A stretch of 64,000 nt of DNA from a bacterium. Its GTDB lineage: Bacteria > Myxococcota_A > UBA9160 > UBA4427. This document shows positions 22,437 to 50,517 of the stretch, one piece after another; position 1 is the first letter of the stretch, and every line of letters begins with the position of its first letter. The position numbers and the translations under genes were made by a program. The stretch spans positions 117 through 64,116 of the forward strand of contig JANOFF010000155.1 of NCBI GenBank assembly GCA_031413515.1. Direction: 5' to 3'. The notes beneath the pieces are model-generated. The model had not been told where the DNA came from, did no database searches, and saw nothing but the letters and a program-made list of their open reading frames with translations.

Positions 22437-22853
22437 CTAGCCGACCACCCGTTTGCGGATCGCTTCGGGTGTGCGGATCAGCAGTCGCCCCTCCGCGTCG
22501 GTCGAGACCAGCACCGTGTGTCCGCGCGCGCTGCGCCGGTCGTGGTCGATGCTCGTGATCTCGTAGTCGAGGCACAGGCGGTTCTCGAAATCGCGGAGCC
22601 AGGCAGATACCTCGAACCGCTCGCCGTACGCGAGAGGGTGGATGTGTCGGCAGCTGGTCTCCGTGATCAGGAACCTGTAGCGGGTCCCGATCAGTTCGCC
22701 GGCGTCGAGCCCGATGGCTCGCAGAAGACGCGTGCGCGCGATCTCGAAGTACTTGAAGTAGTGCCCGTGCCACACGACTCCGAGCTGATCGACGTCGTGG
22801 AACGGCACTTCGAGCGCGACGCGCACTTCGTGCAGTCGGAGGGTCTCGCTCAT
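22437..22853 (-). CDS. 4HBT/YbgC-type hot-dog acyl-CoA/acyl-ACP thioesterase (ApeK-like)
   Basis: 138 aa. VPFHDVDQLGVVWHGHYFKYFE is the typical 4HBT catalytic-Asp block. ATGA overlap with the ammonia-lyase stop. Confidence 0.85.
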   Translation of the reverse strand: MSETLRLHEVRVALEVPFHDVDQLGVVWHGHYFKYFEIARTRLLRAIGLDAGELIGTRYRFLITETSCRHIHPLAYGERFEVSAWLRDFENRLCLDYEITSIDHDRRSARGHTVLVSTDAEGRLLIRTPEAIRKRVVG

Positions 22854-24421
22854 GCGCGCCGTGGCTCCGAGGCGAGCGAGCTGAACAGGGCGTCACCCCT
22901 TCCTGTCCCCGGCAGCCGACCCTGTCGATGCAGCGACACTGCGGTCCGGATGTCGAGATCCTGCCGACGATCGACGTCGACCATCGGGATCTCGGCCCGT
23001 ACCCGAGCGTGCACGGCCTGCGTGGACGCGCTGAAATCGGCCAGATCGCGGAGATCGACGGCCTGACAGACCGCGAGCAGCAGGATCGCGGCGACGCTCT
23101 CGCTCAGTTCGAGGATCCGCAGGCAGTCGCGGGCCGCGATCGTCCCCATGCTGACCTTGTCCTGATTGTGGGATTCGGTGCTGCGGCTGAACGCGCTCGC
23201 GGGCATGGTCAGCTTCAGGGCCTCCGCGGTCAGCGCCGAAGCGCTGATCTGCATCGCTTTGAAGCCGTGGTGGATCAGTCCCTCCACACCCTTGGCCGCG
23301 ACGAGGTTCTCGGGCAATCCGTCACTGGTTTCGCCACTGCAGAGCAACACGAGCTGTCGGTCGAGCAGATCGGCGACGTTGGCGACGGCGGTCTTGAGCC
23401 CGTCCATCACGAAGCAGACGTGTCCGCCATAGAAGTTCCCGCCGTGCAGCACACGACCCGACTCGGGGTCGATCAACGGATTGTCGTTGACGCCGTTCAG
23501 CTCGGTGGTGAGGATGACGCGGGAGAATTCGAGCGCGTCGACGAGGACGCCGATCACATGCGGCGCGCAGCGGATCGAATAGCGGTCCTGGATCCGCGCG
23601 CTCTTCTGCGATCGATCGTGGCCGAGGTGTTCGCGGATCCAGGTCGCGCAGGCGCGGGATCCCGGATGCGGTTTCAGGGCGAAGATCCGATCGTCGAAGT
23701 GCTCGGGATTGCCATGGATGGCTTCGCTCGTCATGGCGGTCAGCGTCGAGGCGAGCGCCGCCAGGGCGCGGGCCCGCGCGAACGCGAGGCAGGCCAGGCC
23801 CGTCATCATGCTGGTGCCGTTCATGATGGCGAGACTCTCTTTCGGCTCGAGGATGAGTGGTCGAAGGCCGACCTTGGCGTGAGCGGCGGCCGCGCTCATC
23901 TCGTCTCCGCGCAAGGACACCTCGCGTTCGCCGACCAGAGTTGCGGCCAGATACGAGAGCGGGGTCAGGTCGCCGCTGGCACCGACCGATCCCTCGGCGG
24001 GGATGCGCGGCAGCAGTCGCAGATTGATCAATTCGCAGAGTCGTTCGAGCACGCACTCGCGTACGCCCGAATAGCCACGGGCCAGGGAAGCGAGGCGCGA
24101 AGCCACAACGGACACCGACTCCTCTTCGTCGAGGATCCGGCCGGTCCCGACACCGTGGAAACGGAGCAGATTCAGGGGCATGTCGGCGCGCAGGGCAGCG
24201 GGAATCTGGTTGCCCACCGAGGCACCGACGCCGGTCGTGACCCCGTAGATCTCGCGGCCCGACCGCTGAAACTCGGCGACCAGTCGGAGTGATTCGGCGA
24301 TCCGGCGACGGTACTGCGCGTCATCGGACAGCGAGGCCCGCCGCTCCTCCCGCGCCAATCCGACGACGTCCTCGATGGCGAGGTCGCCGTCCCCGAAGCG
24401 AACCTTCTCCACTTCTGCCAT
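22850..24421 (-). CDS. MIO-dependent aromatic amino-acid/histidine ammonia-lyase family enzyme
   Basis: 523 aa from MAEVEK (cat 24419-24421), within ORF 22850..25096. MIO tripeptide in GSVGASGDLTPLS. Also YGVTTGVG and NDNPL blocks. Confidence 0.9.
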   Translation of the reverse strand: MAEVEKVRFGDGDLAIEDVVGLAREERRASLSDDAQYRRRIAESLRLVAEFQRSGREIYGVTTGVGASVGNQIPAALRADMPLNLLRFHGVGTGRILDEEESVSVVASRLASLARGYSGVRECVLERLCELINLRLLPRIPAEGSVGASGDLTPLSYLAATLVGEREVSLRGDEMSAAAAHAKVGLRPLILEPKESLAIMNGTSMMTGLACLAFARARALAALASTLTAMTSEAIHGNPEHFDDRIFALKPHPGSRACATWIREHLGHDRSQKSARIQDRYSIRCAPHVIGVLVDALEFSRVILTTELNGVNDNPLIDPESGRVLHGGNFYGGHVCFVMDGLKTAVANVADLLDRQLVLLCSGETSDGLPENLVAAKGVEGLIHHGFKAMQISASALTAEALKLTMPASAFSRSTESHNQDKVSMGTIAARDCLRILELSESVAAILLLAVCQAVDLRDLADFSASTQAVHARVRAEIPMVDVDRRQDLDIRTAVSLHRQGRLPGTGRGDALFSSLASEPRRA

Positions 24422-24895
24422 CCCGAGGCGGGACGAAGAACGTCCGCGCTGTTTCGCGCGCCAGCCATCGCACGCGGTGATTGATGCCAACGATTCGGTC
24501 GGTCCCAGGACACGACCCGACGGGGCGAAGCACTTCGCCCAGCAGAGTGCCGATCGTGCGGTCCCGATCGTCTGGACCGGCCGGCGAGTATAAGAGGCAC
24601 ACGGGTCGCAGGCATCCGAGCGAGTGGACGTGTCCCGCACGAGCGGATCCATGCGTGGGCGAAGGTGCCATATCCGTTCGATGCGGCTTCGACGCTGGCA
24701 GAGGGAGGCTCGTCGAGGCATGCTGGGCAGTGATCCGTCGCTCCTGGCGCTTTGGGGCTGGCGACCGGCCGGTTCCCACCGGTGACGAGCGGACGAAGGG
24801 CTGCAGGATCCTCGGTCGCGTGATCGGCAGAGGATCGAGCCTGTCGGCGGACGGGACCCTCCATCGAAACGCAACGAAGCTACGCAGTCTTCACG

Positions 24896-25393
24896 ATGCC
24901 GGAGTCGCTCTTTCAGATGCCTGGATTTTCCCGTCGATCCCGTTTTCCCGTGTCCGTGCGGTCCCGACAGAGACTTTCGTGGCTGGCCTCGATTTCGGCC
25001 GCCGTGATGCTCTGCGGAGTGGTCCCGTTCCAGGCCGCTCGGGCGGGTGAGTCCGAGGCCGTCTGCACCGCCAAACCATTCGTCGTGAAGATCCATGCCG
25101 ACTGGTGTGCGACCTGCCGCAAGGTCGATGCAGTCTGGACCCGCCTGGGAACCGAGATGGCCGAACAGGTGAACATCGTCGAGCTGGACGTGTCGGATCG
25201 CGTGGCCTTCGAGGAGTCGAAAGCCACGGCGGATCGGCTCGGGCTCGGCAGCTTCTTCAGCGAATACCGCAGTCGGACGGGCACGATCGCTGTTCTCGAC
25301 TGCAAGTCGCGCGAACCGGTGGCGATCATGAGCGGTGAGGTGGATCTCTCGAAATATCTCGATGCCATCTCGAAAGCGAGTCGCCCGTCTTGA
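24896..25393 (+). CDS. exported thioredoxin-fold protein (WCATC active site)
   Basis: 165 aa. Signal/anchor SWLASISAAVMLCGVVPFQAARA. KIHADWCATCRK is a thioredoxin-type CxxC motif. Confidence 0.75.
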   Translation: MPESLFQMPGFSRRSRFPVSVRSRQRLSWLASISAAVMLCGVVPFQAARAGESEAVCTAKPFVVKIHADWCATCRKVDAVWTRLGTEMAEQVNIVELDVSDRVAFEESKATADRLGLGSFFSEYRSRTGTIAVLDCKSREPVAIMSGEVDLSKYLDAISKASRPS

Positions 25394-26226
25394 ACGCCTG
25401 CGCGTCCGGCCCTGCGGATCCGGGCGAGGTCGATGCTCGCCTGTGGGCTCATCCCGCCTTCCTGGCGACGCTGGTCGTCTCCTCGATCGTGGTCGTCTCG
25501 ATGGCGTACTGGCAGGACACGATCGAATCCGCGCTGTTCGACTTCGAATGGTCGCTCAGCAGCCTGCTTCCACCGGAGCGATTCGAGCGCGTGGGACTGC
25601 TGCTGCTCCCGGCGCTGGGCTTCGGATCCGGTCTGCTCGCCAGCGTCTCTCCCTGCATCCTGCCGCTGGTCCCGCTGAACGTCGCGTACATCGGGGCATC
25701 GGGGAGCAGTGGTCTCCGGTCGATCGGGCTTTCGATCCGTTTCGTGCTCGGTTCGGCGTTGGCGCTCTCGGTGCTCGGTCTGTTCGGTGATCTGGCCGGT
25801 TTCCTGATGATCGACCATCGCGGCCCGATGCTGTTGATCGCCGGCGTCGCGATGTTGTACTTCGGTCTGGCGATCCTCGAAGTCGTTCCCGCGCCGACGC
25901 GGCACCTGCTCGGCTCGAGCCGTCGTGCACTCGGGCCGATCGGTGCCGGCGCGGCGTTCTCGCTGATCACGACGCCGTGCTCGAGCCCGCTGCTCGCCGC
26001 CCTGCTCACGATCTCCGCCGCGCAGGCGGTTGCCGGTTCGGGCGTCGTCGCCATGCTCTCGTTCTCGCTGGGCTACACGATGCTGGTGTTTCTCGGCGGT
26101 GTCTTCGGCGGCGGCCTGTTCGCGTGGGTCCGGCGCTTCGACCTGCAGGCACCGCGGGCGGCGGCGGCGGCATTGATGATCGCCTGCGGGCTCACGATCG
26201 GGTACTCGGGCGCCGGCTGGTTCTAG
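25390..26226 (+). CDS. ccdA: cytochrome c biogenesis CcdA/DsbD-type transmembrane thiol-disulfide electron transporter
   Basis: A TTG start overlaps the thioredoxin-like stop. SVSPCILPLVP and ITTPCSSPLL are the two conserved Cys-Pro helices of the family. Confidence 0.8.
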   Translation: MNACASGPADPGEVDARLWAHPAFLATLVVSSIVVVSMAYWQDTIESALFDFEWSLSSLLPPERFERVGLLLLPALGFGSGLLASVSPCILPLVPLNVAYIGASGSSGLRSIGLSIRFVLGSALALSVLGLFGDLAGFLMIDHRGPMLLIAGVAMLYFGLAILEVVPAPTRHLLGSSRRALGPIGAGAAFSLITTPCSSPLLAALLTISAAQAVAGSGVVAMLSFSLGYTMLVFLGGVFGGGLFAWVRRFDLQAPRAAAAALMIACGLTIGYSGAGWF

Positions 26227-26257: not shown

Positions 26258-27877
26258 TCAGACCGCCGGTCGCATCGCCCCGAACACCGCGCTGAGGTGT
26301 TCGCTTCGCGCCGGATCGGCGCAGACGCCCGGCCGGTCGGGCATCCAGAGCGCGGCTTCGGCTCGGATCTCCAGTTGAAGCGCCTCGGCGAGAGCCAGGT
26401 TGGATTCGAGCTTCGCGAGCAACTCGTCTTCGCCGTACGCGTACTTCAGTTCGGCGTTCATCCGGGCCAGGAACTCGATCTCCGCATAGTCGACGAAGGC
26501 GCCGTGACGCGGCTCGCCGTCTCGCGAGTTGGCCGCCCAATCCCTGAAGAGAGCCTGCATGCGGATGTTCAGCGCGGCGAACCGCTGCATGATCGGGTGT
26601 GTCCGCTCGACGAAGCGCTCGTCGCATAGCCGATCGCTGAAGAAGAGAAGAGCGACGCCCCCCCAGTACATCGCGAAATCCCAGATCACCTTGGTGGTCA
26701 TCACGCGGGGGCTGCCCATGATCGGGTACTGGCGGTGGTAGTTGACGAGATAGGTGCGACCGAGGGATCGATACGCGCGGTCGTATCGCACGGCGACTTC
26801 GGAGATGTCTTCGCGGCGGAGATCCCGTGCGATCAGATCGCCCAGATAGCCGTTGCCGACGCCGATGAAATCGCTTCCGGGCGAGTAGAGGGGATCCAGG
26901 AAGAGACCGGCGTCGCCGACGAGCCCCCAGCGCTCGGCGCTGAATACCTGCTTGGCATCGTGCGAATAGTGGCGCAGCGCCTTGAAGTCGAGCCTCGCGT
27001 GTTCGAGGTTTCGTACGACATCGGCACATTGGGGTTCGTGGCGCTCGAGCCAGTCGAGCGCTCGATCGAAGGACGAGATCTCGGCGAACGAGTGCAGCAC
27101 TGCATCCGTCACGATGCCGACGCTCGTCCGGTCACCGGCGAGCGGGATCAGCCATACCCAGTAGCCCTCGCCCATCAGATGGTTGGTCGAGAGTCGTCGT
27201 GAGTGTTTGAGGCGGGAACTCCATTGCAGATCATCTGACCAATCGTCGAGGTCGATCGGGTGATCGATACGGAACCACGCCGCGTTCGCTGCGTGCCGGC
27301 TGGGCTTGGTGCCGCCGAGTTGTCGCTTCAGCAGCGACGCCCTGCCGCTGGCATCGATCAGCCAGCGACACTGCACCTGCTCGCTTCGTCCGCTTCGTTC
27401 GAGCTCGATCCGGTGATCGCGACCTTCTGCGCCGAGGTGCATCCCGCGCACCGCACAACCACGCTCGAAGTGGACTCCGAGCTCGAGTGCGCGGAAGGCG
27501 AGCGCATTCTCGAACTGACCGCGATCGATCTGGAAGCTCGGCACCGTCAGGAAATGGCTCGGGCCACATTCGAGCCGGCTGGCCACGTCCGTGTTGTCGT
27601 CACTGGAGAAGAGGAAGCGCAGTCCGAACTTCGGGAGTTCGTTCGAAAGCAGGTCGCCGAGACCGAGGACATCCACGAAATAGTGGCTGGCCATCTCGAC
27701 CGAAGACTCGCCGACCTTGTGGGCGGCGAAAGGGGCAGGGGATTCGTTCCTCTCGGCCACCAGCACCTGGATCTGCGGGAGGTTCTGTCGCAGCTGGATG
27801 GCGAGGCACAGCCCCGCCAGGCCTCCGCCGACGATCACGGCGTCATAGCGGTCCTGCAGCGCGGAGGGGATCGTCAT
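26258..27877 (-). CDS. flavin-dependent halogenase
   Basis: 539 aa from MTIPSAL (cat 27875-27877). GxGxxG (VIVGGGLAG), catalytic-Lys block HKVGES, WxWxIP (YWVWLIP) and FxxPxxSxG (FLDPLYSPG). Confidence 0.85.
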   Translation of the reverse strand: MTIPSALQDRYDAVIVGGGLAGLCLAIQLRQNLPQIQVLVAERNESPAPFAAHKVGESSVEMASHYFVDVLGLGDLLSNELPKFGLRFLFSSDDNTDVASRLECGPSHFLTVPSFQIDRGQFENALAFRALELGVHFERGCAVRGMHLGAEGRDHRIELERSGRSEQVQCRWLIDASGRASLLKRQLGGTKPSRHAANAAWFRIDHPIDLDDWSDDLQWSSRLKHSRRLSTNHLMGEGYWVWLIPLAGDRTSVGIVTDAVLHSFAEISSFDRALDWLERHEPQCADVVRNLEHARLDFKALRHYSHDAKQVFSAERWGLVGDAGLFLDPLYSPGSDFIGVGNGYLGDLIARDLRREDISEVAVRYDRAYRSLGRTYLVNYHRQYPIMGSPRVMTTKVIWDFAMYWGGVALLFFSDRLCDERFVERTHPIMQRFAALNIRMQALFRDWAANSRDGEPRHGAFVDYAEIEFLARMNAELKYAYGEDELLAKLESNLALAEALQLEIRAEAALWMPDRPGVCADPARSEHLSAVFGAMRPAV

Positions 27878-28623: not shown

Positions 28624-28977
28624 ATCGACGGGACGCGGCCCGTACTGTGCCCCACCGAGATCGACGGCCGAAGGGAGGGCTTCGTGTTTCCTGCGGCTCG
28701 AACCGATCGGGCAAGCATACTCGCGTGTATCCGGCCTCACCACTCGTCGGAGCGCTACGCAGCGGTGATCGCCGACGGGAAGGCCGCACGCGTGACCGAT
28801 CAAGGATGGATCCGGTACTGTACTCGCGCGACGGATATCGCCCGCTGGTCGTCGGTTCGGGTGCTGCGAACGGACGCAGGAATCCGGAACCCGACCTGGA
28901 AATATCTCGATGGATCTGTGGTTCGAGCAGAAAAGCGCCGCCCGCCCCGGACGCGAGGCAGGTCGAGAGTCCTCACG

Positions 28978-42775: not shown

Positions 42776-43088
42776 GTGATCCGACTCCTCCGGCTCATGG
42801 ACCGAACCAGCCCCCGAGCTGCTGCCCCCCCTGGGGTCGATGAGCAGAACCGGTTCGGCGGCGCACCGATCCACACCTGGACTCACGGCGAATCGATCGT
42901 TGGAACGCCGACCCGACGAGTGCGAGATGGATCGACGAGATTCGTTGCGGTCGGGGTGTCGAGAGAACGAGCGAGCGAACCGACGGCCGATCGATGTTCG
43001 AAGCCAAGGGACAATCCGCAACCGGGATCGACCAACTACGGAACTCGCTGCAGCAGGTCCGTGAAGCGATCCGCGGGCAGACTAGCGG

Positions 43089-44199: not shown

Positions 44200-46013
44200 T
44201 GGATCTCTGTCGTCTGCTCGCAGAGGACAGGCCAGCGGATTCGATCGTCGCGCGACGCTGGGACGCAGAGTTCGGGGTCAGCCAGACCATCGACTGGGCG
44301 CGGTTCGTCGCCGATGTGCGACGACTCCAGGGTCGCCTCGCGGGTCAGCGGCGCGGTGCCTGGGTGCTGCTGACCGAAGACGCGTATGCGTTCGTGGTCG
44401 GGCTCTTCGCGCTGTGGCACTCGGACTCGTACGCGGTCCTGCCGCCGAATCGTCAACCCGAGGTGCTCGCCCAGCTGCAGACGCGCGTGGCGGGGGTGAT
44501 CACGGACCGGCCGGGTTGGTTCGAGAGTGGCTCCTCGATCCATCCCCTCGATTGCGAAGATGGATCGGCGGATCCCAAGTCCGATCCGCGGACCGGACTG
44601 TGTCGAGATGCCTTCGCGGTCGAGCTCTTCACTTCCGGGACGACCGGGGACGAGAAGTCGAACACGAAGCGGATCGCGCACCTCGAGGACGAAGTCATCC
44701 AGCTCGAAGCCTGGCGCGGAGCGCAGCTCGACGGGGCATGGTTCTTCTCGACCGCATCCCATCAGCACCTCTATGGCCTGCTTTTCGGTGTGCTGTGGCC
44801 GCTCTGCAGCGGGCGCCCGTTCGACACCCACCACTACCTGCATGCCGACGAACTGCTGCCCAAGATGTTGGAGGCTCCGGCGAGCGTACTGGCGAGCGTC
44901 CCGACCTCGATCAAGCACATCGCGCGGCACGCGTCGTTCCCGTTGCTGCGAGATCGCTGTCGCGCCGTGTTCTCCTCCGGTGGTCCGCTGGCAACCGCCA
45001 CCGCGCACGCCGTCGCCGAGGAGCTGGGACGCGCGCCCGTCGAAGTCCTCGGCTCGACCGAAACCGGCGGAATCGGATGGCGCGAGCAGACGCCTGGACT
45101 CGACGACGTCCCGTGGACGCCGTTCGGCTGCGTGCGGATCGCGCGAGACGACGACACCGGCAGCCTGCGTGTGGATTCGCCACTGGTGAGCGTCGCCACC
45201 GGGGATGCGGGATTCGCGACGGGCGATCTGATCGAGATGATTCCGGATGGCCGATTCCGACTCGGCGGGCGATCCAATCAGGTTGCCAAAGTCGGCGAGA
45301 AGCGGGTCGATCTGGCGTACATGGGCTCGCAGCTCCGCTCGCACGAGTGGATCGACGACGCCGTTCTCACCACGATCGAGCGCGACACCGAACAGCGGGT
45401 TGCTGCGCTGCTCGTGGCGTCGCCACGTGGGCTGGACGTCCTCCGTGTCCGCGGTCGGAGAGCGTTCATCCGAGATCTCCGTGCGTCGCTTTCGGATCGC
45501 TGGGATCCCGTCGTCCACCCCCGCCACTGGCGGTTCGTGGATCGCCTGCCCCACAACGAGCAAGGAAAGGTCACCCGCGAAGCGCTGGCGGCGCTGTTTC
45601 GCGACGCCGCCGAGCCGACGCGCACGACCGATCGTCCGCGTGTGCTGCAGGAAGCGCGTGGCAATGGATCGATCGAACGCACCTGCGAGGTCCCGGAAGA
45701 TCTCCAGTGCTTCCGCGGACACTTTCCCGGATTCCCGGTAGTACCGGGCGTCCTGCAGCTGGATTGGGCGATGGACCTCGCCGCAGTGGTGCTGGGGACG
45801 ACGCCGACCATCCAGGAGATCGAAACCTTCAAGTTGATCAGGCCGCTCGGACCCGGAGCGCGGTTTCGGCTGCACGTCGTGATCGATGACTCGGCCGCCA
45901 TGGAAGTAGTGGAGCCCGAAGGTCTGGCAATGAAGTTCTCGTTGTCGTCCACCACGGAGACGTTTTCGGTCGGACGCATCACGTTGGCGTTGCCCGGATC
46001 GTCATCCGGATAA
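44196..46013 (+). CDS. fusion of an AMP-dependent (acyl-ACP/CoA) ligase and a FabA/FabZ-like hot-dog dehydratase (ApeH+ApeI-like)
   Basis: ATGA overlap with the ACP stop. ANL motifs TSGTTGDEKS, GSTETGG, ATGD, GRSNQVAKVGEKRV, NEQGKV. C-terminal 120 aa carry FRGHFPGFPVVPGVLQLDW (dehydratase His motif). Confidence 0.85.
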   Translation: MMDLCRLLAEDRPADSIVARRWDAEFGVSQTIDWARFVADVRRLQGRLAGQRRGAWVLLTEDAYAFVVGLFALWHSDSYAVLPPNRQPEVLAQLQTRVAGVITDRPGWFESGSSIHPLDCEDGSADPKSDPRTGLCRDAFAVELFTSGTTGDEKSNTKRIAHLEDEVIQLEAWRGAQLDGAWFFSTASHQHLYGLLFGVLWPLCSGRPFDTHHYLHADELLPKMLEAPASVLASVPTSIKHIARHASFPLLRDRCRAVFSSGGPLATATAHAVAEELGRAPVEVLGSTETGGIGWREQTPGLDDVPWTPFGCVRIARDDDTGSLRVDSPLVSVATGDAGFATGDLIEMIPDGRFRLGGRSNQVAKVGEKRVDLAYMGSQLRSHEWIDDAVLTTIERDTEQRVAALLVASPRGLDVLRVRGRRAFIRDLRASLSDRWDPVVHPRHWRFVDRLPHNEQGKVTREALAALFRDAAEPTRTTDRPRVLQEARGNGSIERTCEVPEDLQCFRGHFPGFPVVPGVLQLDWAMDLAAVVLGTTPTIQEIETFKLIRPLGPGARFRLHVVIDDSAAMEVVEPEGLAMKFSLSSTTETFSVGRITLALPGSSSG

Positions 46014-46019: not shown

Positions 46020-46766
46020 ATGCCGGTGAAACCCTGCCTCGCCATTCCGATCTACGATCATGCCGACACGATCTCGACGGTGGTCGGATCGCTCGCCTAT
46101 CTCGGTCTGCCCTGCATCATCATCGACGATGGCAGCCACGACACGACTCGTCGCGTGTTGGACGATCTCGAAGACCGATTCGAGTGGGTGACGGTCGTGC
46201 ATCACGATCGGAACCGGGGCCGCGGCGCAGCGCTTCGCACCGCGTACCGGACGGCAGCCCGACAGGGCTTCACACACGTCGTGCAACTCGACGCGGATGG
46301 TCAACACGACGCGCGGGACGTCCCGCGCTTCCTGGAAGCCGCGACGAGCGCACCGGACGCACTGGTGCTCGGCCAACCGATCTTCGACGAATCGGCCCCG
46401 TTCCATCGGCTGCACGGGCGGAAGCTCTCGCAGGGAATCGTCTGGCTCGAGACATGGTCGATGTCGGCCCGGGATCCGCTGTGCGGCTTCCGCTGCATTC
46501 CGCTTGCCTCGACGCTGCCGGTGCTGGATCGCGCGAACACGGGCGATCGGATGGAGTTCGACCCGGAACTCATCATCCGGCTGATGCGTGCCGGTACGCC
46601 GGTGGTCAACGTACCGACGCGAGTCCAGTACAACGAAGGCGGGATCTCGCACTTCCGGATGGGCGAGGACAATCTGCGGATCGCGTGGGTGTACGTGCGT
46701 CTGGCGGTCGAGTCGCTCTGGAACCGGACCCGCGTCGTCGATGCAAGCGCGCCCCCGCGCAGATGA
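46020..46766 (+). CDS. family 2 glycosyltransferase (ApeJ-like)
   Basis: 248 aa. IPIYDHADTI...IIIDDGSHD...LDADGQH (DxD) pattern. Confidence 0.85.
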   Translation: MPVKPCLAIPIYDHADTISTVVGSLAYLGLPCIIIDDGSHDTTRRVLDDLEDRFEWVTVVHHDRNRGRGAALRTAYRTAARQGFTHVVQLDADGQHDARDVPRFLEAATSAPDALVLGQPIFDESAPFHRLHGRKLSQGIVWLETWSMSARDPLCGFRCIPLASTLPVLDRANTGDRMEFDPELIIRLMRAGTPVVNVPTRVQYNEGGISHFRMGEDNLRIAWVYVRLAVESLWNRTRVVDASAPPRR

Positions 46767-47746
46767 TGAAGCCCGGATCAGAAGATCCGCCGAGCGCGCA
46801 ATGGGCATCGGCGAGCGAACGCGGATCGAACTTCGCGCTGCGCTTCCTGCTGACCTGCGTGCGCACGATCGGACACGCACCGCTCGTCGTCGTGCTTGCT
46901 CCCATCGCCGCCTATTTTCTGCTCTTCTCGCGAGCGGCCCGACTGTCTTCGAAGGACTACCAGCGCCGGATCCGACGGATGCACGGGCAGAGCGGAGAGC
47001 CCGGTCTTCGCGACGTCTATCGACACATCTACAGCTTCGCGGCTGTGATCCTCGACCGCTTCGCACTCTGGGGTGGCGCGATCGACAAGTTCGACATCAC
47101 GCTGCACGGCCGCGAAGCGATGGAGCCGCTCGTCGAGAAGCGGACGGGCGCCATGCTGGTCGGGGCCCACGTCGGCAGTTTCGATGTGCTTCGCGTGATC
47201 GCACGCGAGGCCGACATCCCGGTCAACGTCATCATGTACTCGGTCCATGCCGAAAGGATCAACGCCGCCTTCAGGGAACTCGATCCCGAGTCACGAGTAC
47301 GGATCATCGATCTCGATCCGAATTCCACGAAGGCCGCCTTCCAGGTGCGACAGTGCATCGAACGCGGCGAGTTCGTCGCCGTGCTCGCAGATCGGGTGTT
47401 GCCGGGCGCGCGCAGTCGCGTCGCCTACGCGAAGTTCCTCGGCCAGCTCGCGGCGTTTTCGCAGGGCCCGTTCATGCTTGCAGGCGTGCTCCGGGTGCCG
47501 GTGATCCTGACGATCGCGCTGCGCAGGGGCCCGTGGGCCTACGATGTGTACCTCGAGTCGATCAGCGCCGGCGGTGCGATCGGACGACGGAATCGCTCGG
47601 CCCGGATCCAGGACCAGGTCGAGCGCTATGCGGCGAGACTCGAGCACTATTGTCTGAAGGCACCGAATCAATGGTTCAACTTCTACGACTTCTGGGCCGA
47701 AGCCGATCACGCTCGACAGGGGGACGACGATGACCCTTCGTCCTGA
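46763..47746 (+). CDS. LpxL/HtrB-type lipid A biosynthesis-like acyltransferase (ApeB-like)
   Basis: In frame with ORF 46184..47746. ATG 46763 overlaps the GT2 stop (ATGA). N-terminal TM, VGAHVGSFD (HxxxxD-like) block. Confidence 0.8.
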   Translation: MMKPGSEDPPSAQWASASERGSNFALRFLLTCVRTIGHAPLVVVLAPIAAYFLLFSRAARLSSKDYQRRIRRMHGQSGEPGLRDVYRHIYSFAAVILDRFALWGGAIDKFDITLHGREAMEPLVEKRTGAMLVGAHVGSFDVLRVIAREADIPVNVIMYSVHAERINAAFRELDPESRVRIIDLDPNSTKAAFQVRQCIERGEFVAVLADRVLPGARSRVAYAKFLGQLAAFSQGPFMLAGVLRVPVILTIALRRGPWAYDVYLESISAGGAIGRRNRSARIQDQVERYAARLEHYCLKAPNQWFNFYDFWAEADHARQGDDDDPSS

Positions 47747-48251
47747 GGATCGCATCGATCTCTCCACGTTGATTCCCCATCGTGGCGAGAGCCTGCTGCT
47801 CGATCGGATCATCGACCACGACGACGAGTGCACGATCGCCGGAGTCGTCGTCGGCAGCCGATCCTCGCTGCTGCGCGAAGACGGCACGGTGCCCACGTGG
47901 CTCGCGGTCGAGTACATGGCGCAGACCATCGCGGTCCACGAGGGCTTCATCGCCCGAAGCGAGGGCCGAACCCTCGAGATCGGATTCCTCGTGACGGTGG
48001 TGGGCCTCGAGATCCAGCCCGTGACGTTGCAATCGGGGCAGGTGCTGCGCGTGCACGCAAGGCGAGCGCGTGGACGGCCCGGGCTGGGTGTCGTTTCGCA
48101 CCATTGCACCCTGCATCGCTGCGGGGAGGGCGATCGCCTGGAGATCATCGCCAAAGGTCGGCTCTCGATCGCGATCCGGGGGCTCCGGATCGGCGAGTTC
48201 GCAGGACGAGACAGCACACCCGCTGCGACCGGAAGCGACGTAGACCGCTGA
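47730..48251 (+). CDS. hot-dog fold dehydratase (ApeP-like)
   Basis: 173 aa. LIPHRGESLLLDRI...WLAVEYMAQTIAV is typical of the APE-cluster thioester dehydratase. Overlaps the previous gene by 17 nt. Confidence 0.75.
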   Translation: MTLRPEDRIDLSTLIPHRGESLLLDRIIDHDDECTIAGVVVGSRSSLLREDGTVPTWLAVEYMAQTIAVHEGFIARSEGRTLEIGFLVTVVGLEIQPVTLQSGQVLRVHARRARGRPGLGVVSHHCTLHRCGEGDRLEIIAKGRLSIAIRGLRIGEFAGRDSTPAATGSDVDR

Positions 48252-48315
48252 GTCCCGGCGTGTCTTTCGCGGGTCCACGCCAGCCGTCCGTTGTGCTCCC
48301 GCACTAGACTGGTCG

Positions 48316-50517
48316 GTGGGAGCGACAGTGCCGGCCGACGAAGCGACGGACATTCGGGCACGCGATCCGCTTTTCTGGTGCGCGGCCGGATGCTCGGTCG
48401 CGTTGCTGCTGGCGCTGGCCTGGCCGCTGTTGAATGGACAGCTCTACGTCCTCTCGGACCTCGGCCGTTTCCACGTGCCCGTCCGGTACTTCTACTCGCA
48501 GGCGCTCGCGGCCGGTGACTCGTTCCTCTGGTTCCCCTACGAGTTCACCGGCTTCTACCTGCACGGCGAGGGACAGGGTGCATTCGCCCATCCGCTGAAC
48601 TGGCTCCAGTACAGGCTGCTGCCGTTCCATGTCGCCTTCTCGCTCGAACTCATGCGGACGTATCTGATGCTGGTCGCGGGCACGTTCGCGCTGCTCGTGC
48701 GCTGGCGCGTGTCGTTCGCAGCGGCGGCGTTCGGCTCGCTGGTCTTCAGCTTCGGTTCATTCAACTTCCTCCACTTCGACCACATGAACTTCACCGCCAT
48801 CGTCGCCCACCTCCCGTGGATGCTTCTTGCCGCGGACGTGGCGCTCGAGAGTTCGAATCCACGCTCGGCGTCGCTGGCCCGTTTCGCGCTGATCCTGCTG
48901 GTCGCGTCGGTCGGGTTGCACGGCCATCCCCAGGTGATGTGGATGGCGCTCGTGGCTTTCGGTGGCTGGGCGCTGACGTGGCTCCTCGGAGGATTCCCCG
49001 GGCGTCGCGTGTGGGTTCCGCGCGAGCGACTCGTCGCCCTCGGGCCGCTCGCACTGGCGCTGGTGCTGGGGGTCTCGCTGGCTGCGATCCAGCTGCTGCC
49101 GCAGTGGGATGCTCTCGGCACTTCGCTGCGTGCCGATCCCGGAAGCGGCCACGCCAACAGCTACGCGCTCGCGCCGATCAACATCGTGCAACTCGTCGCG
49201 CCGTATCTGTTCGTGGACCGCACCGTCGGCAGCAACACCGCCGGCTTTGCGTTCTACTGCGGCGCCGCCGTGCTGCCGCTGGCCGTGTGGTCGTGTTTGC
49301 GGGGCAGGCGACTCCGCGCGCTCTGGCCGATGCTGCGCTTCGGCGCACTGCTGGCGGTCTTCGGTTCTGTGCTCGCGCTGGGCGAGCAGGGCGGGCTCTA
49401 CCGCCTGCAGGAGTTGCTTCCGGTGGTCGGGCTGTTCCGCGCGCCGGGCCGCTACGTGATGCTGAGTGAACTCGGTCTGGCCCTGATGGCGACGGCTGCC
49501 TTCGCCGATCTCGCGAGCAGACGGGACGGTGCATCGACTCCCGCGTGGCGGACCCTCTGGCCGCTGGCGATGCCGCTCGGGGTCGCCGCTCTCGTCGCCC
49601 TCGTGATCGGGTTGCCGAGTGTGCAGGCCGCGCATCCCGGATGGGAGATCGCCGGAACTGGCCAGACGGCGACAGGAGTGGCCCTGATCGCGATCGCGAC
49701 GGCGCTGGTGATCGCCTCGGCGCGAGGTCATCGGCTCGCCCTCTACGCACTCGTGGTCGTGACCGCGGTCGATCTCGGCGTCTATGGCCTCAGCTATGTG
49801 CGCTCGCTTCCGACGGTCCGGCTCGCCGAGTGGGCGGGCATCGGAGATCCGCCGCCGGTCGCACCGGATCAGCGCATCGAGCGCGGTCCGACCGTGCTCA
49901 CGTTGCGCGGCGTGCGGCTCGCGAGTGGCTACGCGGCGATGACACCGGATCGCGTGCTGCCGATCGGGCTAGATCGGAATCCGATTCCCGCGCCCGATCC
50001 CACGCTGCTGCGTCACGCGCGCCTCGTGGCGGGGATCCCGGTTGCATCGTCGCGCGCCGGCCGGGCGATCGAACCGCTGCCGCGTGTACGACTGGTGGTC
50101 GCCGCCGAAGCAACCGATGCCGTGCTCGATCGGATCGGTCGGATCGACGTGGCCTCGACGGCGCTCGTCGCCCGGCCGCTCGAGATCGGCCCCGGTCCGA
50201 TCGGCGCTGTCCGCGTGCTCGAAGACCGCCCGGGCCTGCTTCGCGTGCAGACGGACACCCTCACCCCGCAATTGCTCGTCTTCTCGGAGCGCCATCATCC
50301 GGGCTGGCACGGCGATCGCGGAGGGACGGTATGCGATGTCGTGCCCGTCTACGCCGACTTCATGGGCTGCGTGGTGCCGCCAGGCCGCCACTTCATCGAG
50401 CTGCGCTTCGAGCCGCGGAGCTTCACCGCTGGCATGCGTGTGTCGCTGGTCGCTGCGCTGCTCACGGTGCTGTGGTGTGCCCGGCCGATCATCCGGACGA
50501 GCCGAGCTGGAAGCTGA
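48316..50517 (+). CDS. large polytopic membrane protein (YfhO/GT-C-like, putative)
   Basis: 733 aa with a GTG start, about 12-14 TM helices and a C-terminal soluble domain. Functional call is weak. Confidence 0.6.
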   Translation: MGATVPADEATDIRARDPLFWCAAGCSVALLLALAWPLLNGQLYVLSDLGRFHVPVRYFYSQALAAGDSFLWFPYEFTGFYLHGEGQGAFAHPLNWLQYRLLPFHVAFSLELMRTYLMLVAGTFALLVRWRVSFAAAAFGSLVFSFGSFNFLHFDHMNFTAIVAHLPWMLLAADVALESSNPRSASLARFALILLVASVGLHGHPQVMWMALVAFGGWALTWLLGGFPGRRVWVPRERLVALGPLALALVLGVSLAAIQLLPQWDALGTSLRADPGSGHANSYALAPINIVQLVAPYLFVDRTVGSNTAGFAFYCGAAVLPLAVWSCLRGRRLRALWPMLRFGALLAVFGSVLALGEQGGLYRLQELLPVVGLFRAPGRYVMLSELGLALMATAAFADLASRRDGASTPAWRTLWPLAMPLGVAALVALVIGLPSVQAAHPGWEIAGTGQTATGVALIAIATALVIASARGHRLALYALVVVTAVDLGVYGLSYVRSLPTVRLAEWAGIGDPPPVAPDQRIERGPTVLTLRGVRLASGYAAMTPDRVLPIGLDRNPIPAPDPTLLRHARLVAGIPVASSRAGRAIEPLPRVRLVVAAEATDAVLDRIGRIDVASTALVARPLEIGPGPIGAVRVLEDRPGLLRVQTDTLTPQLLVFSERHHPGWHGDRGGTVCDVVPVYADFMGCVVPPGRHFIELRFEPRSFTAGMRVSLVAALLTVLWCARPIIRTSRAGS

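What the first reader, a model, noticed from the sequence alone, without database searches (positions are those of the whole stretch)
22437..50517. Aryl-polyene-type pigment cluster that mixes xanthomonadin, flexirubin and foreign radical-SAM features
Two divergent operons carry what I recognise as the APE core:
- Minus strand (42775 down to 37092): LolA-like, MMPL, DUF3261-like lipoprotein, KS, CLF-like KS.
- Plus strand (43101 to 48251): LPLAT, ACP, AMP-ligase fused to a dehydratase, GT2, LpxL-like acyltransferase, second dehydratase.
Start and stop codons overlap repeatedly (ATGA), so these are tight operons.
The rest of the expected set (FabG, thioesterase) lies 9-20 kb away.
- FabG is translationally coupled to a flavin-dependent halogenase. 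Halogenation is the hallmark of brominated xanthomonadins.
- The thioesterase is coupled to an MIO ammonia-lyase. Flexirubin pathways make their aryl starter this way.
Between them sit about 12 kb of genes I do not associate with any described APE, xanthomonadin or flexirubin locus: thioredoxin-like protein + CcdA, a B12 radical SAM enzyme, a ThiH-like radical SAM enzyme + PaaK-like ligase + UPF0104 protein, and a CRTAC1-like protein.
I found only one ACP, no second initiation-type KS and no SAM O-methyltransferase.
This gene content predicts a halogenated, possibly C-methylated, outer-membrane-anchored aryl polyene with an unusual head group.
Basis: partly seen in the sequence, partly recalled or inferred. 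Interest (0 to 1): 0.8.

Follow-up and report, generated by a model that had tools for sequence, protein, structure and literature searches.

The report
Aryl-polyene lipid cluster with conserved accessory module
This is a real aryl-polyene pigment-lipid gene cluster from an uncultured, probably Myxococcota, bacterium; its "extra" genes (halogenase, two radical-SAM enzymes, an aryl-acid ligase, a periplasmic redox pair and a likely selenoprotein) travel with it across many related genomes, so they mark an undescribed variant of a common pigment pathway.

Summary
The core is a proteobacterial-style aryl polyene (APE) set: KS/CLF, one ACP, a ligase-dehydratase fusion, an ApeP dehydratase, a FabG2-type reductase, LPLAT, GT2, and LolA/MMPL/DUF3261 export genes.

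The 12-kb "insert" is not foreign. Its GC content matches the flanks. Its genes recur beside APE genes in at least five arrangements in Myxococcota MAGs. A diverged version recurs in Binatia MAGs.

Refinements:
- The FAD enzyme carries the halogenase hallmarks GxGxxG, WxWxIP and an aligned catalytic Lys.
- The "ThiH-like" enzyme is NosL-like. It lacks both tyrosine-pocket markers.
- The PaaK-like ligase is closest to the ester-forming aryl-acid ligases NatL2, AjiA1 and BagE.
- The thioredoxin carries a signal peptide.
- The CRTAC1-like "two genes" are one frame with a TGA at the same position in all 17 distinct homologous sequences, followed by a fixed hairpin with a GGUC loop. This is probably a new selenoprotein.

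The cluster is neither a xanthomonadin nor a flexirubin cluster: it has no chorismatase and no DarAB, and the Flx models score below their cut-offs. The product is unknown. I rate it a new variant of a known kind, of moderate to high interest.

The parts
22009..22407 (+). 132-aa predicted lipoprotein (LFAGC lipobox); possible left edge of the cluster
   Evidence: No Pfam hit. Lipobox and one TM segment. 80% identical copy in the same place in L003. 42-48% copies lie beside UPF0104/B12-rSAM in Binatia-type loci.
22437..22853 (-). 4HBT-fold thioesterase (ApeK-like role)
   Evidence: PF13279 at 60 bits, PF03061. YbgC/FadM subfamily below cut-off. ATGA overlap with the lyase gene.
22850..24652 (-). 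MIO-dependent aromatic amino-acid ammonia-lyase or aminomutase (start codon uncertain; relatives are 523-548 aa)
   Evidence: PF00221 at 512 bits. Best NCBIfam hit is BagA/FevW TAL, 460 bits against a cut-off of 1000; FlxA 321 against 700. ASG (MIO) motif present; selectivity position reads F-H. PDB hits to tyrosine aminomutase, AdmH, HAL and PAL all score about 235-252 bits.
24896..25393 (+). Exported thioredoxin (WCATC) with N-terminal signal peptide
   Evidence: PF00085. N-terminus reads ...FSRRSRF...LASISAAVMLCGVVPFQAARA|GE.
25390..26226 (+). CcdA/DsbD-type membrane electron conduit
   Evidence: PF02683 at 42.8 bits. Several TM segments. TTGA overlap with the thioredoxin gene.
26258..27877 (-). 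Flavin-dependent halogenase, similar to the carrier-tethered phenol/pyrrole type
   Evidence: PF04820. GGGLAG, WVWLIP and Lys83 aligned to the CmlS lysine. Best PDB hits are PltA, CmlS, Bmp2-type, ChlB4.
27874..28620 (-). 3-ketoacyl-ACP reductase, FabG2/ApeQ type; the only APE-type KR in the window
   Evidence: TIGR01831 at 358 bits against a cut-off of 338.85; FlxB 290 against 340. ATGA overlap with the halogenase gene.
28969..30375 (+). B12-binding radical SAM enzyme (class B, methylase-like)
   Evidence: PF02310 + PF04055. Best NCBIfam hit is TIGR04072 'lipid biosynthesis B12-binding/radical SAM', 268 bits against 360. Nearest PDB hits are TsrM and AprD4.
30375..30893 (+). 172-aa predicted lipoprotein, coupled (TGATG) to the B12 enzyme gene
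   Evidence: No family hit. TM segment plus VISC lipobox. Conserved next to the B12 gene in 11 loci.
30937..32025 (-). UPF0104 / MprF-flippase-like membrane protein (HpnL-like)
   Evidence: PF03706 at 97 bits for the 362-aa version. TIGR00374 above cut-off, HpnL below.
32045..33232 (-). NosL-family radical SAM aromatic amino-acid lyase
   Evidence: CxxxCxxC motif. 247 bits to NosL (4R33/6HTK), against 91 to ThiH and 94 to HydG. TIGR04158 259 bits against 400. Gln, not Arg, at the ThiH-R306 position, and an ungapped GSPxVAPY motif as in NosL (markers from PMC9046217).
33245..34681 (-). PaaK-like adenylate-forming aryl-acid ligase
   Evidence: PF00501. NCBIfam BagE/FevW synthetase 114 bits, FlxY 72 bits, both below cut-off. 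PDB hits: PaaK 9s3l, AjiA1, NatL2-type PaaK-like ligase.
34747..37071 (+). Secreted CRTAC1-like FG-GAP/UnbV_ASPIC protein read through an in-frame TGA (36478-36480); predicted selenoprotein, Sec at residue 578 of 774
   Evidence: PF13517, PF01839, PF07593. Both ORFs share one frame. TGA sits at the same aligned position in 17 of 17 distinct sequences. Signal peptide present. The interruption falls between CRTAC1 residues 281 and 363 of the solved structure 9etn, within one chain.
36496..36511 (+). SECIS-like hairpin GGCGUC-GGUC-GACGCC, 15 nt after the UGA
   Evidence: Codons GGC GTC GGT CGA CGC are fixed in 17/17 sequences (CGA in 15/17; the CGG variant keeps a G-U pair). Equally invariant Gly, Pro and Asp residues upstream use 2-4 different codons. 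The E. coli fdhF SECIS has the same GGUC loop.
37092..37859 (-). Chain-length-factor-type ketosynthase partner (ApeC-like)
   Evidence: PF13723 at 111 bits. ATGA overlap with the KS gene.
37856..39040 (-). Ketosynthase (ApeO-like)
   Evidence: PF00109 + PF02801. NF006618 at 400 bits against a cut-off of 407.
39128..39799 (-). DUF3261 lipoprotein (ApeN-like)
   Evidence: PF11659. LSGC lipobox.
39796..42123 (-). MMPL/RND transporter (ApeM-like)
   Evidence: PF03176. HAE3 and HpnN families below cut-off.
42116..42874 (-). LolA-like carrier (ApeL-like); start uncertain
   Evidence: PF19574, PF03548. LolA2_flexi 54 bits against a cut-off of 125.
43113..43943 (+). Lysophospholipid acyltransferase (ApeD-like)
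   Evidence: PF01553 at 66.5 bits.
43942..44199 (+). Acyl carrier protein, the only one in the window; start uncertain
   Evidence: PF00550. NF006617 at 100 bits against a cut-off of 70.
44196..46013 (+). Aryl-acid AMP-ligase fused to an ApeI-type dehydratase (ApeH+ApeI)
   Evidence: PF00501, PF22818, PF07977. Best NCBIfam hit for the ligase part is 4-coumarate-CoA ligase TIGR02372, 76 bits, below cut-off.
46020..46766 (+). GT2 glycosyltransferase (ApeJ-like)
   Evidence: PF00535 at 65 bits.
46763..47746 (+). LpxL-like (lipid A-type) acyltransferase
   Evidence: PF03279 at 18.9 bits, below gathering. Weak NCBIfam LPLAT/LpxL hits. Conserved in this position in relatives.
47730..48251 (+). ApeP-type dehydratase
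   Evidence: PF22817 at 32.6 bits against a cut-off of 27.
48328..50517 (+). 729-aa polytopic membrane protein; membership in the cluster uncertain
   Evidence: No Pfam hit. About 10 TM segments. In L006, L078, L025, L030 and L038 other genes follow ApeP.

Best explanation
The region 22.0-48.3 kb is one biosynthetic gene cluster for an outer-membrane aryl-polyene lipid. It belongs to an undescribed subfamily found in uncultured Myxococcota, with a diverged counterpart in Binatia.

Shown by sequence:
- A complete minimal APE machine is present: ligase-dehydratase fusion, one ACP, KS/CLF, FabG2-type reductase, ApeP dehydratase, 4HBT thioesterase, LPLAT, GT2, LpxL-like acyltransferase, and LolA/MMPL/DUF3261 export genes.
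- A fixed accessory set co-travels with it.

Inferred steps, in order:
1. The MIO lyase makes a cinnamate-type acid, most likely p-coumarate.
2. The ApeH-like ligase loads that acid on the ACP.
3. The PltA/CmlS-like halogenase halogenates the carrier-bound phenol.
4. KS/CLF, the reductase and the two dehydratases build the polyene.
5. The acyltransferases and GT2 attach it to a lipid anchor, and the Lol/MMPL-like genes export it.

Accessory operon, by analogy with NosL/NosI and with BagE/NatL2:
- The NosL-like radical SAM enzyme converts an aromatic amino acid into an aryl (indole-type) carboxylic acid. The pocket markers point to Trp rather than Tyr.
- The PaaK-like ligase adenylates that acid and joins it as an ester or amide to the pigment-lipid.
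- The UPF0104 flippase-like protein moves the lipid outward.
- The B12 radical SAM enzyme C-methylates, standing in for the missing ApeB methyltransferase.

In the periplasm, the exported thioredoxin fed by CcdA, and the secreted CRTAC1-like protein (probably a selenoprotein), form or belong to a redox system acting on the exported product. What that system does is unknown.
For: - Core identity. ApeI-like and ApeP-like Pfam models, DUF3261, LolA_3, MMPL and Ketoacyl-synt_2 all score above gathering. FabG2 TIGR01831 and ACP NF006617 score above their NCBIfam cut-offs. Tight ATGA coupling was confirmed.
- Linkage. The only APE-type reductase and thioesterase in the window lie inside the accessory block. 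L003 (89% identity) is fully syntenic.
- Linkage in other MAGs. The block abuts KS/CLF with or without the CRTAC1-like gene (L009, L011, L018, L019). Elsewhere it abuts the LPLAT-ACP-ligase-GT2-LpxL-ApeP operon (L006, L010, L078). Elsewhere the PaaK/NosL/UPF0104 genes follow ApeP directly in the same orientation (L025, L030, L038).
- Binatia-type locus L077 carries the trio with an ApeI-like dehydratase, a halogenase, an MIO lyase, two B12 rSAMs, GT2 and an LpxL-like gene.
- GC content is uniform at 0.65-0.67 across the region.
- Halogenase motifs and PDB neighbours.
- NosL-type markers (PMC9046217).
- PaaK-like neighbours AjiA1, NatL2 and BagE.
- The ligase domain's best hit is 4-coumarate-CoA ligase.
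- Signal peptides on the thioredoxin and the CRTAC1-like protein.
- Sec evidence.
- Role assignments for the Ape proteins are taken from PMC8253772.
Against: - No product, transcript or enzyme data exist.
- One locus with full 10-kb flanks (L004/L005/L008) has the accessory block without KS/CLF or transport genes nearby.
- Binatia-type loci lack close LolA, DUF3261 and CLF homologues. The trio therefore partners with type II FAS/PKS genes in general, not only with canonical APE genes.
- Most accessory enzymes score below NCBIfam equivalog cut-offs, so specific chemistry is by analogy only.
- The lyase's selectivity position reads F-H, and I could not assign it to any lyase or mutase class.
- No Cys-containing homologue spanning the TGA was found.
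- No Sec machinery is visible in the window.
Confidence: 0.7

Rival explanations
1. Two neighbouring pathways. The APE core makes an ordinary aryl polyene. The PaaK-like/NosL-like/UPF0104/B12-rSAM/CRTAC1-like/Trx-CcdA genes make or modify a different envelope lipid or small molecule and are merely often adjacent.
For: - L004/L005/L008 carry the accessory block with no APE core within 10 kb.
- Binatia-type loci have the trio with KS/FabG/ACP and several B12 rSAMs but without close LolA, DUF3261 or CLF homologues.
- More distant NosL-like homologues (about 50% identity) often have no recognisable partner genes nearby.
Against: - The only APE-type FabG and thioesterase in the window, the halogenase and the lyase are interleaved with these genes.
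- Adjacency survives at least five rearrangements. One has the trio directly downstream of ApeP in the same orientation.
- L077 keeps an ApeI-like dehydratase, halogenase, lyase, GT2 and LpxL-like gene with the trio.
Confidence: 0.2
2. The CRTAC1-like locus is a true two-gene split. UGA terminates, the conserved ATG two codons later restarts, and there is no selenocysteine.
For: - TGA is the commonest stop codon here (46 of 63 called genes).
- An invariant ATG lies at codon +3.
- No Cys-containing homologue spans the site. The two full-length distant homologues have no Cys there.
- Rfam gives no SECIS hit.
- No sel genes are seen in the window.
Against: - TGA occurs in 17 of 17 distinct sequences from two phyla, never TAA or TAG (0.73^17 is about 0.005 if the sequences were independent, which they are not).
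- Peptide conservation runs straight through the stop codon.
- Family members of only 37-40% identity end at the same point.
- Synonymous sites of GVGRR are frozen into a 6-bp stem with a GGUC loop, 15 nt after the UGA. This is the loop of the E. coli fdhF SECIS.
- A hairpin 9 nt after a start codon would hinder initiation.
- The downstream part has no signal peptide while the upstream part has one. The break falls between aligned CRTAC1 residues 281 and 363 of a single solved chain.
Confidence: 0.2
3. The FAD enzyme is a hydroxylase or reductase rather than a halogenase, so the product is not halogenated.
For: The Pfam Trp_halogenase match is partial (53 bits). Many FAD monooxygenase and geranylgeranyl reductase models also hit.
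Against: - WxWxIP (WVWLIP) and the lysine aligned with the CmlS lysine are present. I recall both as features that separate halogenases from monooxygenases.
- The eight best PDB matches are halogenases apart from one unassigned flavoprotein.
Confidence: 0.15

Closest known systems
Proteobacterial aryl polyene (APE) clusters, e.g. E. coli CFT073 apeA-R and Xenorhabdus doucetiae (PMC8253772; bioRxiv 10.1101/2020.12.19.423268)
   Same: KS/CLF pair, ACP, aryl-acid ligase, ApeI and ApeP dehydratases, FabG2-type reductase, 4HBT thioesterase, LPLAT, GT2, and LolA-like/MMPL/DUF3261 export genes. Operons are tightly coupled.
   Different: - No ApeR second KS, ApeF second ACP, ApeB methyltransferase, ApeA or ApeG.
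- Ligase and dehydratase are fused.
- The starter probably comes from an MIO lyase rather than from 4-HBA of primary metabolism.
- It adds a halogenase, a NosL-like rSAM, a PaaK-like ligase, UPF0104, a B12 rSAM, Trx/CcdA and a CRTAC1-like protein.
Xanthomonadin clusters of Xanthomonas (PMC3691225; PMC8253772)
   Same: Halogenase gene inside the cluster, a single ACP, KS/CLF, and glycosyl- and acyltransferases.
   Different: No XanB2-type chorismatase/3-HBA synthase gene anywhere in the window; an MIO lyase is present instead. I did not test whether this halogenase is orthologous to the Xanthomonas one.
Flexirubin clusters of Bacteroidota (NCBIfam Flx models)
   Same: An MIO ammonia-lyase supplies the aryl starter. 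A LolA-like protein and an SDR reductase are present. A PaaK-like ligase gives a partial FlxY match.
   Different: - FlxA, FlxB, FlxY and LolA2_flexi all score below their equivalog cut-offs.
- No DarA/DarB dialkylresorcinol genes.
- The core is closer to proteobacterial models (TIGR01831, NF006617, NF006618).
NosL/NosI of nosiheptide biosynthesis. NosL is the radical SAM tryptophan lyase that makes 3-methyl-2-indolic acid (PDB 4R33; PMC9046217).
   Same: The rSAM aligns over its full length with NosL (247 bits). It keeps the substrate arginine and the GSPxVAPY motif and lacks both tyrosine markers. It sits next to an adenylate-forming ligase gene.
   Different: - About 40% identity; below the TIGR04158 cut-off.
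- The context is a lipid/polyketide cluster, not a thiopeptide cluster.
- The ligase is PaaK-like.
- Substrate and product are untested.
FASII-like clusters with B12/radical SAM genes in anammox bacteria and Deltaproteobacteria ('ladderane-type'; TIGR04072; PMC2649909)
   Same: A B12-binding radical SAM gene embedded among FabF-, FabG- and ACP-type genes. The best NCBIfam model for the window enzyme is TIGR04072.
   Different: The score is below the cut-off (268 against 360). The function of that family is itself unknown. The window cluster is clearly APE-type, with aryl-starter and export genes.
E. coli fdhF SECIS / bacterial selenoproteins
   Same: In-frame UGA followed within 11-15 nt by a GC-rich hairpin capped by a GGUC loop.
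   Different: The protein family (CRTAC1-like FG-GAP/UnbV_ASPIC) was not linked to selenocysteine in any paper I could search. No Cys homologue was found. Sec machinery was not observed.

Membership tests
Aryl polyene (APE) biosynthetic gene cluster | KS plus chain-length-factor pair (ApeO/ApeC) | tested here: met
   PF00109/PF02801 KS and PF13723 CLF, ATGA-coupled. NF006618 scores 400 against a cut-off of 407.
Aryl polyene (APE) biosynthetic gene cluster | Dedicated ACP and aryl-acid ligase (ApeE/ApeH) | tested here: met
   NF006617 scores 100 bits against a cut-off of 70. An AMP-binding domain is encoded next to the ACP gene.
Aryl polyene (APE) biosynthetic gene cluster | ApeI- and ApeP-type dehydratases and an ApeQ-type reductase | tested here: met
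   PF22818 and PF22817 above gathering. TIGR01831 scores 358 against 338.85.
Aryl polyene (APE) biosynthetic gene cluster | Lipid attachment and export set (LPLAT, GT2, LolA-like, MMPL, DUF3261) | tested here: met
   PF01553, PF00535, PF19574, PF03176, PF11659.
Aryl polyene (APE) biosynthetic gene cluster | Second KS (ApeR), second ACP (ApeF), SAM methyltransferase (ApeB) | tested here: not met
   None found in any called gene of the 64-kb window. PMC8253772 reports that xanthomonadin BGCs lack the second ACP and that an E. coli apeR deletion mutant still makes the main APE lipid.
Aryl polyene (APE) biosynthetic gene cluster | Product is an aryl-headed conjugated polyene acid bound to a membrane lipid | not testable with these tools
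   Needs extraction, UV-vis/Raman and MS.
Xanthomonadin cluster | XanB2-type chorismatase supplying 3-HBA/4-HBA | tested here: not met
   No such domain in any window gene (Pfam scans). An MIO lyase is present instead.
Xanthomonadin cluster | Halogenase gene within the cluster | tested here: met
   PMC3691225 states that a halogenase gene is present in Xanthomonas clusters. Orthology was not tested.
Flexirubin cluster | FlxA tyrosine ammonia-lyase equivalog | tested here: not met
   NF053541 scores 321 bits against a cut-off of 700. The gene is an MIO lyase but not an FlxA equivalog.
Flexirubin cluster | DarA/DarB dialkylresorcinol genes | tested here: not met
   No FabH-like or DarA-like gene in the window (Pfam scans above).
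Flavin-dependent halogenase | GxGxxG, WxWxIP and a catalytic lysine | tested here: met
   GGGLAG at residues 17-22, WVWLIP at residues 240-245, and Lys83 aligned with a CmlS lysine in the HMMER alignment. That this CmlS lysine is the catalytic K71 rests on my memory of the numbering.
NosL (3-methyl-2-indolic acid synthase) family | CxxxCxxC, substrate Arg, and absence of the ThiH/HydG tyrosine markers (Arg at +6, one-residue beta-bulge insertion) | tested here: met
   C86/C90/C93 are invariant. In TRE...Q the +6 residue is Gln, as in NosL. GSPGVAPY aligns without a gap to NosL GSPDVAPY. The markers are defined in PMC9046217.
NosL (3-methyl-2-indolic acid synthase) family | Score above the curated equivalog cut-off | tested here: not met
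   TIGR04158 scores 259 bits against 400. It is a relative, not a certified equivalog.
TIGR04072 lipid-biosynthesis B12/radical SAM | Score above the curated cut-off | tested here: not met
   268 bits against 360.
Bacterial selenoprotein | Conserved in-frame UGA with conserved coding sequence on both sides | tested here: met
   17 of 17 distinct sequences carry TGA. Homologues of 37-40% identity end at the same site.
Bacterial selenoprotein | SECIS hairpin shortly downstream of the UGA | tested here: met
   GGCGUC-GGUC-GACGCC lies 15 nt downstream with frozen synonymous sites. The loop is the same as in fdhF. There is no covariation because the stem is invariant, and no Rfam hit.
Bacterial selenoprotein | Cys-containing homologues at the Sec position | tested here: not met
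   None was found spanning the site. Two distant full-length homologues have no Cys there.
Bacterial selenoprotein | selA/selB/selC/selD in the genome | not testable with these tools
   No tRNA genes and no sel genes in the window. The rest of the genome is not available.

The most novel reading that the evidence does not exclude
This would be a previously unrecognised class of envelope pigment-lipids in uncultured Myxococcota and Binatia. A halogenated aryl polyene would be combined with a second aromatic unit, an indole-type acid made by a NosL-like radical SAM enzyme and attached by a NatL2/BagE-type ligase. It would be serviced in the periplasm by a new selenoprotein family (CRTAC1-like beta-propeller) reduced through a dedicated thioredoxin/CcdA relay. 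That would be an antioxidant lipid with its own redox-maintenance system.
Probability: 0.25. Interest if true: 0.85.

Novelty: new variant of a known kind. Interest (0 to 1): 0.62.

Why it matters
- APE clusters are described as the most widespread bacterial biosynthetic gene cluster family, yet only a few products are known. Here a fixed accessory set defines a subfamily seen only in uncultured lineages. That set is a halogenase, a NosL-like and a B12 radical SAM enzyme, an ester-type ligase, a flippase-like protein and a periplasmic redox pair. The subfamily predicts new chemistry, for example a second aromatic unit, C-methylation without a class-I methyltransferase, and halogenation.
- It gives a concrete genomic context for two orphan enzyme groups: NosL relatives outside thiopeptide pathways, and the TIGR04072-type B12 radical SAM enzymes long noticed in FAS-like clusters.
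- The CRTAC1-like gene is systematically annotated as two ORFs in public data. If it is a selenoprotein, it is a new and abundant environmental selenoprotein family tied to lipid-pigment biosynthesis.

Tried and rejected
- Exact-match look-up of the window's rSAM protein found only two short metagenome contigs, so the source organism could not be named.
- The tRNA scan was empty.
- The Rfam scan of the TGA region gave only chance hits and no SECIS family.
- Folding energy of the TGA-downstream region alone is not unusual (z = -0.33). The evidence is conservation, not stability.
- The HMMER search of 1.8 billion representatives with the N-terminal CRTAC1-like ORF was swamped by giant FG-GAP repeat proteins. 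It yielded only two non-split distant homologues, neither with Cys at the site.
- A short query centred on the TGA found only upstream-half fragments.
- The PDB search could not align CRTAC1 across the Sec site.
- I considered calling the lyase a TAL outright and rejected that. The PDB and NCBIfam scores do not separate TAL, HAL, PAL and aminomutase, and the selectivity position reads F-H.
- I considered the idea of a horizontally inserted "foreign" block and rejected it on uniform GC content and conservation in relatives.
- The single cultured hit (Thalassomonas, 37% identity, L072) shares no neighbouring genes with the window cluster.

Full report
**Gene calling**

The window has about 66% GC and is full of spurious ORFs. 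I therefore called genes with a codon-usage score. I then annotated the 22-55 kb region with Pfam and NCBIfam and the rest of the window with Pfam.

**Observation**

On the minus strand, 37092-42874, lie the CLF (PF13723), KS, DUF3261, MMPL and LolA-like genes.

On the plus strand, 43113-48251, lie these genes:
- LPLAT.
- One ACP. NF006617 scores 100 bits against a cut-off of 70.
- An AMP-ligase fused to an ApeI-type dehydratase.
- GT2.
- An LpxL-like acyltransferase.
- An ApeP-type dehydratase.

FabG is at 27874-28620(-). TIGR01831 FabG2 scores 358 bits against a cut-off of 338.85. Its stop overlaps the start of the FAD halogenase gene (26258-27877) as ATGA.

The MIO lyase (22850-24652) overlaps the 4HBT thioesterase gene (22437-22853) in the same way.

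I confirmed seven ATGA overlaps, a TTGA overlap (Trx/CcdA) and a TGATG overlap (B12 enzyme/lipoprotein) base by base.

Between these lie:
- Thioredoxin and CcdA.
- A B12-binding radical SAM gene. Its true start is near 28969; the long ORF from 28330 overlaps FabG.
- A 172-aa lipoprotein.
- UPF0104 (30937-32025).
- A ThiH/NosL-family radical SAM gene.
- A PaaK-like ligase.
- An FG-GAP/UnbV_ASPIC (CRTAC1-like) gene.

No second ACP, second KS, class-I methyltransferase, DarA/DarB or chorismatase is encoded anywhere in the 64 kb. The flanks hold a cytochrome c oxidase operon, Rieske oxygenases, a sulfatase, amidohydrolases and similar genes.

**Is the "insert" part of the cluster?**

GC content is flat at 0.65-0.67 across the region, so nothing suggests foreign DNA.

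Using the rSAM protein, I found more than 800 homologues, almost all from metagenomes. I fetched contexts with the look-up of encoding contigs and through a scan of GTDB species representatives (69 loci). I mapped all window proteins onto them with tblastn.

Every locus comes from a MAG. Most are labelled Myxococcota/"Deltaproteobacteria" or Candidatus Binatia.

Arrangements seen in the Myxococcota-type set:
- L003 (89% identity) is syntenic gene for gene from LolA to the thioesterase.
- L009 and L011 have the same order as the window.
- L018 and L019 have KS-CLF running directly into PaaK-like/rSAM/UPF0104, with no CRTAC1-like gene between.
- L006/L007, L010 and L078 place the LPLAT-ACP-ligase-GT2-LpxL-ApeP operon next to the CRTAC1-like gene.
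- L025, L030 and L038 have the trio immediately downstream of ApeP in the same orientation.

Only L004/L005/L008 has full 10-kb flanks and still lacks an APE core nearby. The other loci without APE core genes are cut off at the contig end within 0.4-2.6 kb of the rSAM gene.

A Binatia-type locus (L077) carries the trio with an ApeI-like dehydratase, a Trp_halogenase-family enzyme, an MIO lyase, two B12 rSAMs, a methyltransferase, GT2 and an LpxL-like gene. Others carry KS, FabG and ACP homologues of 36-49% identity.

Linkage that survives this much rearrangement argues for a functional unit. So does the fact that the window's only APE-type reductase and thioesterase lie inside the block. The insert is a conserved module of this cluster family, not unrelated neighbours.

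**Refining the parts**

Halogenase:
- It has GGGLAG and WVWLIP (the WxWxIP motif).
- Lys83 aligns with a lysine of CmlS. I take this to be the catalytic K71 from my memory of the numbering.
- Its best solved relatives are PltA, CmlS, Bmp2-type and ChlB4 halogenases. From memory, these act on carrier-tethered or small phenol/pyrrole substrates.
- PMC3691225 states that xanthomonadin clusters contain a halogenase gene, so this feature has precedent.

Radical SAM enzyme:
- It is much closer to NosL (247 bits over the full length) than to ThiH (91) or HydG (94).
- PMC9046217 names two markers for tyrosine-specific lyases: an Arg six residues after the substrate Arg, and a one-residue beta-bulge insertion. 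The window protein has Gln at that position, as NosL does.
- It also has an ungapped GSPGVAPY motif matching NosL GSPDVAPY.
- It is therefore a NosL-type enzyme, though below the TIGR04158 cut-off (259 against 400).

PaaK-like ligase:
- Its nearest solved relatives are a PaaK, AjiA1 and a NatL2-type PaaK-like ligase.
- Its best NCBIfam hit is the bagremycin synthetase BagE.
- From memory, these are aryl-acid adenylating enzymes that form esters.

B12 enzyme:
- It is nearest to TIGR04072 ("lipid biosynthesis B12-binding/radical SAM", below cut-off) and to TsrM and AprD4.
- PMC2649909 documents B12/radical SAM genes in FASII-like clusters of anammox bacteria and Deltaproteobacteria, with unknown function.

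MIO lyase:
- It has the ASG motif.
- TAL, HAL, PAL and aminomutase models and structures score alike, and the selectivity position reads F-H.
- I treat p-coumarate as likely, not shown. The APE ligase domain's best hit is a 4-coumarate-CoA ligase model, which fits.

Thioredoxin:
- The 165-aa ORF has a signal-like N-terminus (SRRSRF...AARA|GE) and a WCATC motif.
- With CcdA, this is a periplasm-directed reducing relay.

**The CRTAC1-like gene**

The two ORFs, 34747-36480 and 36487-37071, are in one frame, separated by TGA at 36478-36480.
- All 17 distinct homologous sequences held, from both phyla, have TGA at the same aligned position.
- The surrounding peptide is highly conserved: NGF[VI][TS]GP..DD[VL]-TGA-[LMI][ED]M..GVGRR.
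- All 120 best database homologues of the downstream part are 179-236-aa fragments beginning right after this point.
- Family members of 37-40% identity end exactly there.
- Fifteen nucleotides after the TGA lies GGCGTC-GGTC-GACGCC (36496-36511). The five codons that encode it are identical in 17/17 sequences. The only variant, CGA to CGG, keeps a G-U pair.
- Equally invariant Gly, Pro and Asp residues upstream use two to four different codons. That is selection on RNA, not on protein.
- The E. coli fdhF SECIS has the same GGUC loop on a GC-rich stem 11 nt after its UGA. I recalled that sequence from memory and verified it in 5419 of 5426 E. coli genomes.
- The upstream part has a signal peptide and the downstream part has none.
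- The break falls between residues 281 and 363 of the single CRTAC1 chain in 9etn.

Against the selenoprotein reading:
- TGA is the usual stop codon here (46 of 63 genes).
- An invariant ATG follows at +3.
- No Cys homologue was found.
- Rfam is silent.
- No sel genes are in view.

I put selenocysteine at roughly 0.75-0.8. A full-text search found no paper connecting this family with selenocysteine.

**Mechanism**

The machinery and its conservation are shown. The chemistry is inferred. Using the Ape roles summarised in PMC8253772, the steps are:
1. The lyase makes the aryl acid.
2. The ApeH-like ligase loads it on the single ACP.
3. The halogenase acts on the carrier-bound phenol.
4. KS/CLF, FabG2 and the ApeI/ApeP dehydratases build the polyene.
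5. LPLAT, GT2 and the LpxL-like acyltransferase attach it to a lipid.
6. MMPL, LolA-like and DUF3261 export it.

The co-directional operon PaaK-like to NosL-like to UPF0104 most plausibly makes a second aryl (indole-type) acid. It would activate that acid, attach it, and flip the lipid.

The B12 enzyme would supply C-methylation in the absence of ApeB. The exported thioredoxin with CcdA and the secreted Sec protein would act on the product in the periplasm.

The main rival is two adjacent pathways. L004 and the Binatia loci, which lack canonical APE export genes, keep that rival alive.

**Comparison and verdict**

The cluster passes the tests for an APE cluster of the single-ACP kind. It fails the defining tests for xanthomonadin (no chorismatase) and flexirubin (Flx equivalogs below cut-off, no DarAB).

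I found no paper that combines "aryl polyene" with NosL, ThiH or tyrosine lyase. The papers found that mention aryl polyenes together with Myxococcota appear to be metagenome or genome-mining surveys (none was opened).

I rate it a new variant of a known kind. It occurs in dozens of uncultured species and has an unknown product. It also brings a likely new selenoprotein family as a by-product. Interest: 0.62.

Noticed in passing
window 34747-37071 (+); TGA at 36478-36480; hairpin at 36496-36511: The CRTAC1-like FG-GAP/UnbV_ASPIC 'gene pair' is one frame with an in-frame TGA conserved in 17 of 17 distinct sequences. A frozen GGCGUC-GGUC-GACGCC hairpin lies 15 nt downstream. This is probably an unannotated selenoprotein family that is systematically split into two ORFs in public databases.
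   Followed up: yes
window 24896-26226 (+): The thioredoxin has an N-terminal export signal (SRRSRF...AARA|GE) and is TTGA-coupled to CcdA. This is a periplasm-directed reducing relay inside a pigment cluster. It is conserved in Myxococcota-type relatives but was not detected in Binatia-type loci.
   Followed up: partly
window 31914-31985 (within the UPF0104 gene, minus strand): An 18-bp tandem repeat of 4 copies encodes a repeated SRL(F/L/S)x(R/G) hexapeptide in the N-terminal tail of the UPF0104 protein.
   Followed up: no
window 22009-22407 (+): A 132-aa lipoprotein with no family hit. Copies of 42-48% identity sit beside UPF0104 and B12-rSAM genes in Binatia-type loci (L027, L040, L041, L044, L048, L057). 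It may belong to the module and move the cluster edge to 22009.
   Followed up: partly
L077 1-21155; L069; L021; L035: Binatia-type loci combine the PaaK-like/NosL-like/UPF0104 trio with two or three different B12 radical SAM genes. They also carry a halogenase-family FAD enzyme, an MIO lyase, an ApeI-like dehydratase, a methyltransferase, GT2, an LpxL-like gene, and KS/FabG/ACP. This is a second, more divergent uncharacterised lipid/polyketide cluster type.
   Followed up: partly
window 48328-50517 (+): A 729-aa protein with about 10 predicted TM segments and no Pfam hit (only a very weak PgfM2 glycosyltransferase match). It follows ApeP here, but other genes follow ApeP in the relatives whose loci reach that far.
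   Followed up: no
L008, L010, L019, L020 (record titles): Several MAGs carrying this Myxococcota-type cluster at 60-71% protein identity are titled 'uncultured Spirochaetaceae/Spirochaetales bacterium' in their records. That looks like a labelling inconsistency.
   Followed up: no
window 8519-12601 (+): A COX2/COX1/COX3/COX4-type haem-copper oxidase operon. The organism is likely aerobic, even though the cluster depends on two oxygen-sensitive radical SAM enzymes.
   Followed up: no
window 21672-21723: An 18-bp tandem repeat (2.9 copies, 97% matches) at the 5' end of the SDR gene 20882-21739(-).
   Followed up: no
L072 (Thalassomonas sp. RHCl1): This is the only cultured-organism hit of the NosL-like enzyme (37% identity). 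None of the window's cluster genes is found within 10 kb of it.
   Followed up: no
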